Shown: piece by piece, positions 11,148 to 13,646 of the stretch | Layout: each line of letters starts with the position of its first letter | How positions within the stretch are numbered: position 1 is the stretch's first letter | Source of the DNA: a virus | Lineage: Duplodnaviria > Heunggongvirae > Uroviricota > Caudoviricetes | DNA: 26,817 nt | Virus record (IMG/VR): IMGVR_UViG_2778261176_000016 | Reading direction: 5' to 3' (one strand) | Program-made: the position numbers and the translations under genes | The notes under the pieces: model-generated | What the model was told of the DNA's origin: nothing | What the model saw: only the letters and a program-made list of their open reading frames with translations | Database searches by the model: none

Positions 11148-11180
11148 AATAAAAACCGCGTGTAAACGCGGTTTTTTATT
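11148..11180. terminator. Bidirectional intrinsic terminator (AAAAACCGCG-TGTAAA-CGCGGTTTTTT)
   Basis: Read directly: 10-bp stem, 6-nt loop, flanked by an A-run and a T-run. It sits 12 nt after the moron stop and 13 nt before the DNA-circulation gene. Confidence 0.7.
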
Positions 11181-11191
11181 AGGTAATAAAA

Positions 11192-11680
11192 TTAAAGATC
11201 ATAATCAACATTATGAGTATCTATTCTACATGATGAATAAGTAATTCCGCTTTCACCACTAATATTTACGCCAGCCTTTACCTTCCCTGTTTTCGTAACA
11301 TCAACAAAGAATTGCCCTCTTGGCATTTTAAATGCAAAAGAGAAACCAATAATTTCCGAGTCAAAGTTATTTTCATCCTCACTAATTGGTACAATAAAAG
11401 TCAATGGTGCAGATTGTGAGTTATTTTCAAAATCAAAAGCACCAATGCTTTTATTAAACTCGTAGGATGCTTTTTTTATTAAAAGAGTTCCACTTGCCGA
11501 CTTTGCTGGGCATATTACAGACAGTCTATTTATTCCCTCTACATCTAGATCTATATTCTTATCCGTTGAAGTTTTAACGTTATCTATAAAGTATGTAGCA
11601 AGCTGCTTTTCCGTTACTGGCTTCGCAAAGGAGTTTAATGGCAGTCCTACAGCCAACAACAATATAAACATTTTCTTCAT
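11192..11680 (-). CDS. Moron: secreted protein of unknown function with a Sec signal peptide (MKKMFILLLAVGLPLNSFA|KP)
   Basis: AT-rich by eye compared with the flanking GC-rich tail genes. Start taken at the internal ATG at 11680, preceded by GGAG; the product is about 162 aa with two Cys and no recognised family. Confidence 0.75.
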   Translation of the reverse strand: MKKMFILLLAVGLPLNSFAKPVTEKQLATYFIDNVKTSTDKNIDLDVEGINRLSVICPAKSASGTLLIKKASYEFNKSIGAFDFENNSQSAPLTFIVPISEDENNFDSEIIGFSFAFKMPRGQFFVDVTKTGKVKAGVNISGESGITYSSCRIDTHNVDYDL

Positions 11681-11744
11681 ATTCTCTCCTACATTCAGCA
11701 CAAACTTTACCACTCAATAACCCTACTTGATTAAAGTAGTTATA

Positions 11745-13646
11745 TTATCGTCTGAATGGAGAATACCCCACATCGTGCGTGATTTTCATCAGGGGATCGG
11801 CTTTGCCCGGTACATCAATTATCTTCATACCTGGCGGAGCATTCTCGAACGTGACTTTCAGCTCGCTGTGCTGTGTCATGGAAGAAGATGGATTCAACAG
11901 CGGAACATTGGGTTTGTACTGACTCAGGCTGGCCTGATACTGCTCGTACTCTTTACGATCAAAAAAAGGCGTCCAGTCTGAAGCCAGAAACAGCCCTTTA
12001 TTATCCAGCCAGTTAACCGTATCTTCAGGAACAACACTTTCCAGAGTATCTTTAACCGGCTCATACATCAGGGTTCCCAGAAAACCATATACCCCGGCCT
12101 TCCCGATAAAGCCGCGGCCTTTCCCCATCAATCCCGTTTCTGCCGATACCTTCCCCAGCGTACGCATCTCTCTGGTCACTGCGGTAATGGATTTGGTAAC
12201 GTCAGCAACCCATTTGGTTGCCATAAACAGGGCAATTGCTTTCAGAACAGTTTCCCATCCCCCCATCGCCTGCGCCGTTTCATCCACCACGTGCCAGACT
12301 TTTTTTATGACAGGACCTACGGTTTCCCAGTTATCAATAATGAGGTAAGCGCCACCAACCAGAAGAGCAATCAGCCCCTTAGCAGACGTCATATTCATCA
12401 CACCGCCGAGAACTTTCATGATTCTGGACAAAGAGCCTGCAGCGGCTCCCACCGTCAGTAAGGCCAGACCGATTTTAGCAATGGTCTTAACAAGCTCCGG
12501 GTTTTCACGGACAAACGTTCTCACTTCCTCAAGGAGCGGTTTTACCGCTTCAAGACCATCATTAACCTCAGGAAGAAACGTTTCCCCCAGCGTGGAAGAA
12601 ATGGCATCAAGTTGATTTTGCAGAAGTAAAAGCTGGTTTTCCGTCGTCGCTGCCCTCGAAGCATATTCCTTCTGCATCGAACTGCCATATTGCTGGGAAT
12701 CCGCAACCCGCCTGAAGTTGGTACGCAACAAATCAAGGTTAGTCAGCAGAGGTGCTATCGCGCCCAGAGACTCTTTCCCGAACAGGGCATTCAGCACAGC
12801 TGCCTGTTTTTCTTTAGGCACTTTAGCCATCGCATCCAGTACAGACAGCATGGTGCCCCGGGCATCTTTCTGCATATCAGCAGCTAATTTCTTCGGATTG
12901 ATCCGCAGAAAACGCAATGCCTGTTTCTGCGATTTTGTCGCGGAATTTCCCGCGGTCAGGGAAAGCATGAAGTTCTTGATCCCTGTGGCGGCAATTTCTG
13001 ACTCCACGCCCATCCCGGCAATGGTTGCCCCCATCGCCGCGATTTCGCCGGAAGCCACACCAGCAACACCACCTAAAGGACCAATACGCGTAACAATATC
13101 GGAGATTTTCTTCGCATTCGCCGGGCCGGTATTACCAAGGTAGTTGATTTTGTCAGCCAGCCCGGCCACTTCATCCTGTGTCATATTAAACGCAGTACGC
13201 CACTGGGCCATCATCTGCCCGGACTCTTCAGCCGTGGTATCAAAGGCCACGCCCATCTTCACCGCATCAGTGGCAAACTGCATCAGTTCATCACGTGCAA
13301 TCCCGGCCTGACCGCCAGCCGCCACAATTTCCGCGATCCCGTCTGCAGACATGGGAAGCTCTGTAGACAAAGCGCGTACCTGCTCCGTCATGGCCTTAAA
13401 TGCATCCGGCGTATCCAGACCGTCCACCACTTTGCGGACATCAGCCATCTTCGATTCAAGGGTGATGGCTGATTTTACAGGGAGTGCCAGTGCCCCCATT
13501 ATTGCAGTACCCGCCCCGGCAGCGCCCAGAGCAAGGCTGGAGACTTCTTTCTGAAATCCCTTAAGCTGACGCTGCATACCTTTAAGCGGGCCGGACAGCC
13601 TGTCAACGGCGGTGATGATGGCTTTCAGCTGAAAATTATCAGCCAT
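11745..13646 (-). CDS. Tail tape measure protein
   Basis: 633 aa, Ala/Gly-rich and helical with membrane-like segments; position downstream of the tail chaperone. Confidence 0.85.
   Translation of the reverse strand: MADNFQLKAIITAVDRLSGPLKGMQRQLKGFQKEVSSLALGAAGAGTAIMGALALPVKSAITLESKMADVRKVVDGLDTPDAFKAMTEQVRALSTELPMSADGIAEIVAAGGQAGIARDELMQFATDAVKMGVAFDTTAEESGQMMAQWRTAFNMTQDEVAGLADKINYLGNTGPANAKKISDIVTRIGPLGGVAGVASGEIAAMGATIAGMGVESEIAATGIKNFMLSLTAGNSATKSQKQALRFLRINPKKLAADMQKDARGTMLSVLDAMAKVPKEKQAAVLNALFGKESLGAIAPLLTNLDLLRTNFRRVADSQQYGSSMQKEYASRAATTENQLLLLQNQLDAISSTLGETFLPEVNDGLEAVKPLLEEVRTFVRENPELVKTIAKIGLALLTVGAAAGSLSRIMKVLGGVMNMTSAKGLIALLVGGAYLIIDNWETVGPVIKKVWHVVDETAQAMGGWETVLKAIALFMATKWVADVTKSITAVTREMRTLGKVSAETGLMGKGRGFIGKAGVYGFLGTLMYEPVKDTLESVVPEDTVNWLDNKGLFLASDWTPFFDRKEYEQYQASLSQYKPNVPLLNPSSSMTQHSELKVTFENAPPGMKIIDVPGKADPLMKITHDVGYSPFRR

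What the first reader, a model, noticed from the sequence alone, without database searches (positions are those of the whole stretch)
11148..11745. Low-GC secreted-protein moron with its own terminator, embedded in the tail operon
The tail genes are tightly packed with overlapping stops and starts, except here. Between the tape measure and DNA-circulation genes is an AT-rich cassette encoding a protein with a clean Sec signal peptide and no recognised family, followed 12 nt later by a strong bidirectional terminator. Composition and placement indicate horizontally acquired cargo expressed in the lysogen, possibly a periplasmic factor for superinfection exclusion or host interaction.
Basis: partly seen in the sequence, partly recalled or inferred. 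Interest (0 to 1): 0.6.

Follow-up and report, generated by a model that had tools for sequence, protein, structure and literature searches.

The report
Secreted accessory gene in prophage tail
An AT-rich gene for a small exported beta-barrel protein of unknown function sits between two tail genes of an SfV-like E. coli prophage; it is dispensable for making virions, yet relatives occupy the same slot in prophages of many enterobacteria, so it is a candidate envelope-acting factor, perhaps one that blocks rival phages.

Summary
A 162-aa ORF (11192-11680, minus strand) lies between the tape-measure gene and the Mu-N-type hub ("DNA circulation") gene. It has the lowest GC in the window (0.34 vs 0.52), a conserved Sec signal peptide, and a strong hairpin with a T-run 15 nt after its stop.

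It is not a virion part. SfIV has a 99%-identical tape measure and joins the two tail genes directly. SfV, SfI and SfII also lack the gene.

It is not a one-off acquisition either. The protein belongs to phrog_5586 (no Pfam family), about 77 clusters across Enterobacterales. In 9 of 11 contexts read, a member sits in this same slot, is always AT-rich, and diverges faster than the tail proteins.

The terminator position belongs to the backbone. A hairpin with compensatory changes precedes the hub gene even in SfV and SfII, which have no cassette. Unrelated small AT-rich genes fill the same slot in other E. coli prophages.

No convincing promoter was found, so expression in the lysogen is untested.

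AlphaFold (pLDDT 86) gives a generic soluble 8-stranded barrel with two invariant cysteines.

Best guess, at low confidence: a periplasmic binding protein acting in superinfection exclusion.

The parts
11745..13646 (-). Tail tape measure gene (633 aa), upstream neighbour; 99% identical to the SfIV tape measure
   Evidence: PF10145 at E 2e-42; phrog_28; identity table
11717..11744 (-). Imperfect stem-loop directly after the tape-measure stop codon. The core is 11723-11728 paired with 11734-11739. It has no T-run. In the E. coli FDAARGOS_1293 allele it is a perfect 11-bp stem.
   Evidence: Sequence; comparison with L032. Function unknown.
11684..11689 (-). Ribosome-binding site GGAGAG, 3 nt before the ATG at 11680
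   Evidence: Sequence
11624..11680 (-). Codons 1-19: Sec signal peptide MKKMFILLLAVGLPLNSFA, with predicted cleavage before K20
   Evidence: n/h/c regions and the -3/-1 rule by inspection; A19 nearly invariant in 23 relatives
11192..11680 (-). Slot gene: 162-aa precursor and about 143-aa mature protein, phrog_5586. Predicted fold is an N-terminal helix plus an 8-stranded up-and-down beta-barrel. C57 and C151 are invariant.
11146..11177 (-). Intrinsic-terminator-like hairpin (arms 11151-11161 and 11166-11176) with a T-run on the gene strand and an A-run upstream, so bidirectional in form. It occupies the position of the conserved terminator upstream of the hub gene in SfV-like phages.
11141..11146 (-). 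RBS GAGGTG of the hub/DNA-circulation gene, directly after the T-run
   Evidence: Sequence; shared with the empty SfIV junction
9762..11135 (-). Mu N-type 'DNA circulation' / baseplate hub gene (457 aa), downstream neighbour
   Evidence: PF07157 at E 1e-33; phrog_184 baseplate hub

Best explanation
The ORF is a real, non-structural accessory gene of the SfV-like (Mu-type) tail module.

Shown:
- It occupies a slot between the tape-measure stop codon and a terminator hairpin that directly precedes the RBS of the hub gene (Mu N type).
- The slot is empty in some functional phages. In many enterobacterial prophages it holds a member of this family (phrog_5586). In others it holds unrelated small AT-rich genes, several with signal peptides or membrane anchors.

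Inferred from sequence and model:
- The product is exported by Sec and cleaved after A19.
- It folds as a soluble 8-stranded beta-barrel. The two invariant cysteines lie at the end of strand 1 and in strand 8; if the barrel closes in the usual way these strands are neighbours, so a disulfide formed in the periplasm is likely.
- No catalytic motif is conserved, so it most likely acts by binding something.

Inferred from known lambdoid biology:
- These phages carry a Q antiterminator, so the late transcript would read through the hairpin during lytic growth.
- Transcripts that start in the slot without Q would stop before the baseplate genes.

Proposed function, not shown: in the periplasm the protein binds a component of an incoming contractile tail (tape measure, hub or spike) or a host factor that tail needs, and so blocks DNA entry by related phages (superinfection exclusion).

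Confidence is about 0.85 that it is an exported accessory protein in a conserved cargo slot, and about 0.3 for the exclusion function.
For: Accessory, not virion:
- SfIV has a 99%-identical tape measure and 95% hub and lacks the gene. SfV, SfI and SfII lack it too. SfIV was isolated as an infective phage (PMC3851460).
- The SfIV-type junction is empty in 115 E. coli genomes and filled in 101.

Real gene and family:
- phrog_5586 matches at E 8e-85, and all 23 aligned relatives match it.
- About 77 clusters are found across Enterobacterales.
- The AlphaFold model reaches pLDDT 86 and pTM 0.79 with 11 sequences.

Synteny: members lie between tape measure and hub in L003/L009, L016, L021-L026, L027, L029/L030 and L031.

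Fast evolution:
- Slot protein identity is 36-49%, against tube 81-88%, gpP 64-81%, hub 52-72% and tape measure 51-75% in the same loci.
- dN/dS between close alleles is 0.82, from only 10 differences.

Export: the signal peptide and the ...A|K junction are conserved, and C57 and C151 are invariant.

Cargo slot: unrelated AT-rich genes occupy the same place. These are the SKA5 type (secreted, 85 genomes), a bPH protein, a membrane-anchored or secreted hypothetical, a reverse-oriented membrane-anchored OB-fold protein, a HIRAN protein and a reverse ClpP-like gene.

Terminator: hairpins are found in 12 of the 14 junctions examined, with 100% pairing and two compensatory pairs in the alignable set.

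Q antiterminator: annotated in phage vB_EcoM-720R4, which carries this cassette at 99.8% identity, and described for SfIV.

Precedent: the HK97 gp15 moron lies next to a tape-measure gene and blocks DNA entry in a way that depends on the tail (PMC3594210).
Against: - No functional data exist, and no paper mentions the family or its accessions.
- No PADLOC match.
- No convincing promoter. The best site in the 64-nt gap scores 5.6. A site scoring 8.6 lies inside the tape-measure gene, and AT-rich shuffles reach 10.9 in 10% of trials.
- In L026 the gene is packed with 16- and 17-nt gaps and no terminator, which fits plain co-transcription with late tail genes. A protein made only late is a weaker candidate for protecting a lysogen.
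- The fold is generic and has no specific structural relative; no Foldseek match has E < 0.001.
- Slot identity tracks general tail divergence, not specifically the tape measure.
- The two most distant members lie in phage-plasmid-like accessory regions, not in tail operons.
Confidence: 0.35

Rival explanations
1. Lysogenic-conversion factor aimed at the animal host or environment. On this view it is a periplasmic binder or inhibitor, for example of lysozyme, proteases or a toxic small molecule, that improves survival of the lysogen rather than acting on phages.
For: - The protein is a periplasmic small beta-barrel.
- A conserved SASG motif recalls the SxSGAxY motif of MliC (motif recalled from knowledge, MliC sequence verified).
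- Carriers are gut and pathogenic Enterobacterales.
Against: - Profile comparison with MliC aligns only the signal peptide, probability 1.7%.
- No Pfam hit for any of 23 members, even at E < 1.
- The SASG motif lies before strand 2, not where the MliC loop lies.
- Strict linkage to one tail-gene junction across genera is not expected for a host-directed factor.
Confidence: 0.2
2. Late-phase helper of the phage itself. It would be co-transcribed with the tail genes and exported during lytic growth to modify the envelope, for example to tune lysis or to stop progeny being wasted on debris of the lysed cell.
For: - No clear promoter of its own.
- It has the same orientation as the late operon in every family locus.
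- In L026 it is packed tightly with no terminator.
- It co-diverges with the tail module.
Against: - It is dispensable: infective SfIV lacks it.
- Within one tape-measure allele, about half of E. coli prophages lack it.
- It can be replaced by unrelated genes, including one in reverse orientation that must have its own promoter.
- dN/dS near 0.8 and rapid divergence fit conflict better than housekeeping.
Confidence: 0.15
3. A classical one-off moron: a recently and horizontally acquired cassette that brought its own promoter and terminator into this particular prophage.
For: - It is extra DNA relative to SfIV, and its composition is sharply different.
- The hairpin sequence here differs from the common CCCGC-TTCG-GCGGG type.
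- Three other cassettes in the slot have TATAAT- or TAGAAT-type -10 boxes 30-36 nt upstream of their start codons.
Against: - Homologues occupy the same slot across at least eight genera, and their divergence parallels that of the flanking genes.
- All are AT-rich, so composition does not date the event.
- A terminator at this position also exists without any cassette, in SfV and SfII.
- No flanking repeats or transposon ends.
- All 101 E. coli copies have the same flanks.
- No promoter was found.
Confidence: 0.15
4. A structural or assembly component of the tail, or an outer-membrane 8-stranded barrel of the Lom/Ail/OmpX kind.
For: - The position inside the tail operon is conserved.
- One source names a relative 'opacity protein-like surface antigen' (P0119).
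Against: - It is absent from infective SfIV and from SfV, SfI and SfII.
- A cleavable signal peptide does not fit cytoplasmic tail assembly.
- Profile comparison with OmpX is negative, and there is no Pfam outer-membrane-protein hit.
- The strands are only 5-10 residues long, there is no C-terminal aromatic residue, and the two cysteines are invariant.
Confidence: 0.05

Closest known systems
HK97 gp15 moron (superinfection exclusion; Cumby et al. 2012, reviewed in PMC3594210)
   Same: A small extra gene inside a tail operon, next to the tape-measure gene. Its composition differs from its neighbours, related phages lack it, and its product goes to the envelope. HK97 gp15 blocks DNA entry in a way that depends on the tail of the incoming phage.
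   Different: gp15 is a YebO-like inner-membrane protein with one membrane helix, its own promoter, and expression from the prophage. This protein is a Sec-exported soluble beta-barrel with no sequence relation, no demonstrated promoter, no functional data, and conserved synteny across genera.
Lambda lom / bor and cor of phi80, N15 and HK022 (envelope-targeted genes in or near tail genes)
   Same: Prophage genes for exported envelope proteins, embedded among late or tail genes and not needed for virion production (remainder from general knowledge).
   Different: Lom is an Ail/OmpX-family outer-membrane barrel, and Bor and Cor are small lipoprotein-type factors. Here there is no similarity to OmpX, no lipobox, and short strands typical of a soluble barrel.
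T4 Spackle (Sp), a periplasmic exclusion protein
   Same: A phage-encoded, signal-peptide-bearing periplasmic protein that acts on a component of an incoming contractile tail (from general knowledge). This is the mechanism proposed here.
   Different: As I recall it, Spackle is a small helical protein that inhibits the gp5 tail lysozyme and belongs to a virulent phage. No tail lysozyme domain was seen in the tape measure or hub here, and the predicted fold is a beta-barrel.
PliC/MliC periplasmic lysozyme inhibitors
   Different: No sequence or profile similarity, and the conserved loop motif is not in the same place. The fold match is no better than to avidins or MoaF-like proteins.
Defence and cargo hotspots of temperate phages (P2/P4 hotspots; PMC13586616 appeared in the search list)
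   Same: A fixed junction in a conserved phage backbone where unrelated small genes replace one another between close relatives.
   Different: This slot lies inside the late tail operon and is bounded by a conserved terminator. None of its occupants matches a known defence family, apart from a weak HIRAN hit.

Membership tests
Moron (Juhala/Hendrix definition) | Extra DNA relative to closely related phages | tested here: met
   SfIV joins tape measure and hub across 24 nt. The window has 609 nt there.
Moron (Juhala/Hendrix definition) | Nucleotide composition different from the surrounding genes | tested here: met
   GC is 0.336 against 0.52-0.55 in the neighbours, the lowest in the window. 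The same holds for every family member, so it does not date the acquisition.
Moron (Juhala/Hendrix definition) | Own promoter | tested here: inconclusive
   The consensus scan finds none on the gene strand. The best PWM site in the gap scores 5.6, and a site scoring 8.6 lies inside the tape-measure gene. AT-rich shuffles reach 10.9 in 10% of trials.
Moron (Juhala/Hendrix definition) | Own terminator | tested here: inconclusive
   A strong hairpin plus T-run is present. However, a terminator at this position is a backbone feature that also occurs without a cassette.
Moron (Juhala/Hendrix definition) | Expressed from the repressed prophage | not testable with these tools
   Needs RNA-seq or reporter data from a lysogen.
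phrog_5586 (function unknown) | Full-length match to the family profile | tested here: met
   E 8.1e-85, residues 1-161 of 161. All 23 aligned relatives match.
Sec / signal peptidase I exported proteins | Positive n-region, hydrophobic h-region, small residues at -3 and -1 | tested here: met
   MKK / MFILLLAVGLPL / NSFA|K by inspection. The A|K junction is nearly invariant in 23 members. No SignalP run was possible, and export was not shown experimentally.
Virion component of the Mu-type / SfV-like tail | Present in all functional phages with this tail | tested here: not met
   Absent from SfIV, SfV, SfI, SfII and vB_EcoM-689R6. Only 1 of 50,697 deposited phage records carries any member.
PliC/MliC lysozyme inhibitors (PF09864) | Profile match and the conserved SxSGAxY loop | tested here: not met
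   No Pfam hit. hhalign against E. coli MliC gives probability 1.7%, signal peptide only. Only the generic barrel similarity remains.
Ail/Lom/OmpX outer-membrane 8-stranded barrels | Profile match, long amphipathic strands and a C-terminal aromatic signal | tested here: not met
   hhalign against OmpX is negative and there is no Pfam hit. Strands are 5-10 residues. The C-terminus is ...VDYDL or ...KPS, and two cysteines are invariant.
Known anti-phage defence families (PADLOC 2.0) | Match to a defence-protein model | tested here: not met
   No hit at E up to 10.
HK97 gp15 / YebO-type exclusion proteins | Small inner-membrane protein with one membrane helix and YebO homology | tested here: not met
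   The architecture differs: a cleavable signal peptide plus a 143-aa barrel. This is a resemblance in role only.

The most novel reading that the evidence does not exclude
phrog_5586 would define a new class of periplasmic superinfection-exclusion protein that is genetically coupled to the tape-measure/hub junction of Mu-type contractile tails across Enterobacterales. The terminator-bounded slot it occupies would be a dedicated cargo bay in the late operon of SfV-like phages, where envelope-targeted anti-phage genes are swapped.
Probability: 0.25. Interest if true: 0.7.

Novelty: new member of a known kind. Interest (0 to 1): 0.4.

Why it matters
SfV-like prophages are in about a fifth of complete E. 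coli genomes (1076 of 5426) and include the Shigella serotype-converting phages. An exported protein family tied to one tail-gene junction across many genera gives a concrete, cheap candidate for a factor that acts on phage DNA entry in the periplasm, a step for which few defences are known. Because several unrelated small genes share the slot, the junction is also a place to look for further uncharacterised envelope-acting prophage genes. If the protein has no phage-related phenotype, it is one more hypothetical prophage gene, and the main result is a corrected annotation.

Tried and rejected
- AlphaFold with only 3 sequences failed (pLDDT 37). A second run with 11 diverse relatives succeeded.
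- The afdb50 fold library was not available.
- Foldseek against PDB and BFVD gave no match with E < 0.001.
- The consensus terminator and promoter scan missed the hairpin and found no promoter on the gene strand. My own PWM scan cannot separate promoters from AT-rich background.
The second found only Shigella and E. coli plus three weak Firmicutes matches that I take as chance.
- There were no hits in Pfam, NCBIfam or PADLOC, in the sequence search of the PDB, or in Rfam for the whole window.
- No direct or inverted repeats flank the cassette, so there is no transposon signature.
- The lysozyme-inhibitor (MliC) and OmpX/Lom ideas were tested by profile comparison and rejected.
- Literature searches for the phage name, the family and its protein accessions found nothing. 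Searches for a described hotspot at this junction found nothing relevant.
- dN/dS rests on only 10 differences and is not decisive.
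Full report
**What the window is.** The window is an SfV-like temperate phage: an HK97-type head, a Mu-type contractile tail and lambdoid regulation. The genes run on the minus strand, in this order:
- lysis genes (24351-26162), HNH endonuclease, terminase, portal, protease, capsid;
- sheath (14407-15903), tube, chaperone, tape measure (11745-13646);
- the ORF in question;
- the Mu N-type 'DNA circulation'/hub protein (9762-11135), then gpP, gp45-48, fibre genes, an invertase and an integrase.

The locus is 99.8% identical to Escherichia phage vB_EcoM-720R4, and its flanks match Shigella phage SfIV.

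**Checking the observation.** The ORF is 11192-11680 on the minus strand, 162 aa, with ATG at 11680 preceded by GGAGAG. Four points were checked.
- Composition. The stretch 11150-11744 has GC 0.336 against 0.515 for the window and is the lowest 595-nt stretch in the 26.8 kb. GC3 is 0.26, against 0.54 and 0.58 in the neighbours.
- Spacing. The gaps to the neighbours are 64 and 56 nt, whereas most tail genes overlap.
- Hairpin. It starts 15 nt after the stop codon, with 11-nt perfectly complementary arms (11151-11161 and 11166-11176) and a 4-nt loop. It folds at -20.4 kcal/mol, z -4.7. An A-run lies on one side and a T-run on the other. The simple consensus scan did not report it.
- Signal peptide. 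It reads MKKMFILLLAVGLPLNSFA|KP and obeys the n/h/c and -3/-1 rules. The A|K junction is nearly invariant in 23 relatives.

Pfam, NCBIfam and PADLOC give nothing. The protein does match phrog_5586, whose function is unknown, over its full length at E 8e-85.

**The gene is not part of the virion.**
- SfIV has a tape measure 99% identical and a hub 95% identical to those of the window, and it joins the two genes across 24 nt.
- The SfIV junction shares the hub RBS and all but the last few codons of the tape measure with the window. This places the extra DNA at about 11150-11754.
- SfV, SfI, SfII and vB_EcoM-689R6 also lack the gene. SfIV was isolated as an infective phage (PMC3851460).
- Among 5426 complete E. 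coli genomes, 1076 carry the hub flank. Of these, 101 carry this cassette, always with the same flanks, 11 carry a distant allele, and 115 have the empty SfIV-type junction.
- Only one of 50,697 deposited phage genomes carries any member of the family.

**The gene is not a one-off insertion.**
- A profile search of 1.84 billion representative proteins found only 16 relatives. A second word-indexed search with these relatives found about 77 clusters. They come from E. coli, Shigella, Salmonella, Citrobacter, Leclercia, Lelliottia, Kluyvera, Klebsiella, Serratia, Erwinia and Pantoea, and every one is annotated as hypothetical.
- I read 11 independent genomic contexts. In 9 the gene lies between the tape measure and the hub gene of an SfV-like tail module. 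These are the window, L003/L009, L016 (after a HIRAN gene), L021/L022, L023-L025, L026, L027, L029/L030 and L031.
- The two most distant members lie in phage-plasmid-like accessory regions next to ParA, repressor and RepA genes.
- In every locus the slot gene is AT-rich (0.34-0.41) relative to its neighbours (0.47-0.59). Low GC is thus a standing property of the family and not evidence of recent transfer.
- Slot-protein identity (36-49%) falls in the same order as that of the flanking genes but is always lower. The comparison values are tube 81-88%, gpP 64-81%, hub 52-72% and tape measure 51-75%.
- dN/dS between two close E. coli alleles is 0.82, from only 10 differences.

The simplest reading is an old, fast-evolving and facultative resident of this slot that has been repeatedly lost or replaced.

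**The slot and its terminator.** Other E. coli prophages carry unrelated AT-rich genes (GC 0.31-0.38) in the same place:
- a secreted 164-aa protein (phrog_8976; phage SKA5; 85 genomes);
- a bPH-domain protein;
- a 176-aa protein with an N-terminal hydrophobic segment;
- a reverse-oriented, membrane-anchored OB-fold protein (tRNA_anti-like);
- elsewhere, a HIRAN protein and a reverse ClpP-like gene.

A hairpin plus T-run directly upstream of the hub RBS occurs in 12 of the 14 junctions examined. These include SfV and SfII, which have no cassette; in the SfII record it is annotated as a terminator. In the seven alignable sequences, all 42 stem cells pair and two pairs show compensatory changes. 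SfIV, L026 and L019 lack it. The terminator position is therefore a backbone feature that bounds the slot, not something peculiar to this cassette, although the stem sequence here is different.

**Expression.** No convincing sigma-70 promoter precedes the ORF. The best site in the gap scores 5.6, and a site scoring 8.6 lies inside the tape-measure gene. Three of the other cassettes have TATAAT- or TAGAAT-type sites 30-36 nt upstream of their start codons, scoring 10-12. However, shuffled AT-rich sequence reaches 10.9 in 10% of trials, so none of this is decisive. Phage 720R4 carries an annotated Q antiterminator and a cI repressor, and Q is described for SfIV. From known lambdoid biology, the Q-modified late transcript should read through the hairpin, while transcripts started without Q would stop there. 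Expression in the lysogen is untested.

**The protein.** With 11 diverse sequences, AlphaFold gives pLDDT 86 and pTM 0.79. The model has a helix (residues 24-41) followed by eight strands of 5-10 residues.
- C57, at the end of strand 1, and C151, in strand 8, are invariant. If the barrel closes in the usual way, strands 1 and 8 are neighbours, so a disulfide formed in the periplasm is likely. This is an inference.
- No conserved catalytic residues stand out. The conserved positions are mostly glycines and aromatic residues.
- Profile comparisons with E. coli MliC (sequence verified against 2f09) and with OmpX are negative.

**Interpretation.** With high confidence, this is an exported, non-structural accessory protein in a conserved cargo slot of the SfV-like tail module. 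For its function I commit, at about 0.3, to a periplasmic binding protein that interferes with DNA entry by incoming related phages. The reasons are fourfold:
- it is linked to the genes whose products cross the periplasm during injection;
- it evolves quickly;
- it is facultative;
- it shares the slot with other envelope-targeted small genes.

There is also a precedent in HK97 gp15, which lies next to a tape-measure gene (PMC3594210). The rivals are a host-directed periplasmic inhibitor or binder (0.2), a late-phase helper of the phage (0.15), and a tail component or outer-membrane protein (0.05).

**Novelty.** Morons in tail operons are well known. This family is uncharacterised, and I found no paper that mentions it. 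I rate it a new member of a known kind. The conserved synteny and the terminator-bounded slot add some interest.

Noticed in passing
window 23938-24258 (-): A second low-GC island (about 0.39-0.40) lies between the Rz/Rz1 spanin genes and the HNH endonuclease. It holds a 106-aa ORF that matches phrog_2483 (function unknown) and sits at the Pfam threshold for GrlR, the T3SS negative regulator (26.7 bits; cut-off 26.8). It may be another accessory gene.
   Followed up: partly
window 11146-11177; L004, L005, L017, L021, L023, L027, L030, L031 upstream of the hub gene: A hairpin plus T-run directly before the RBS of the hub/DNA-circulation gene is conserved across SfV-like tail operons of several genera, including phages with no cassette. 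All stem cells pair and two base pairs show compensatory changes. Its role in a Q-antiterminated late operon is unexplained; it might tune the ratio of gene products, insulate the baseplate genes, or delimit the slot.
   Followed up: partly
window 11717-11744: An imperfect stem-loop with no T-run lies directly after the tape-measure stop codon. In the E. coli FDAARGOS_1293 allele it is a perfect 11-bp stem, TAACCCTACTT/AAGTAGGGTTA. Function unknown.
   Followed up: no
L007 3782-4276; L017 496-873; L018 494-1024; L019 543-989; L016 2387-2974; L029 4518-5069: At least six unrelated small genes occupy the same tape-measure/hub slot in other prophages. They are a secreted phrog_8976 protein, a bPH protein, a membrane-anchored or secreted hypothetical, a reverse-oriented membrane-anchored OB-fold protein, a HIRAN protein and a reverse ClpP-like protein. 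None matches a PADLOC defence model, except for weak HIRAN hits.
   Followed up: partly
L009 about 7520-7620 (S. flexneri SFBU1023): In Shigella flexneri the 49%-identical allele and its terminator are intact, but an IS1 end follows within about 70 nt and interrupts the hub gene. The slot gene has thus survived in a decaying prophage. In E. coli PEC122 an IS1 interrupts the ORF itself.
   Followed up: no
window 3423-5100: A DNA invertase gene (4145-4711) lies next to tail-fibre assembly genes. In phage 720R4, fibre-assembly genes are annotated in both orientations. This suggests a Mu G-segment-like invertible host-range switch.
   Followed up: no
window 13647-13730: An 84-nt gap lies between the tail assembly chaperone ORF and the tape-measure start. 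It is the other non-overlapping junction in the tail operon, and is where a frameshift-extended chaperone product would be expected in such tails. Not examined.
   Followed up: no
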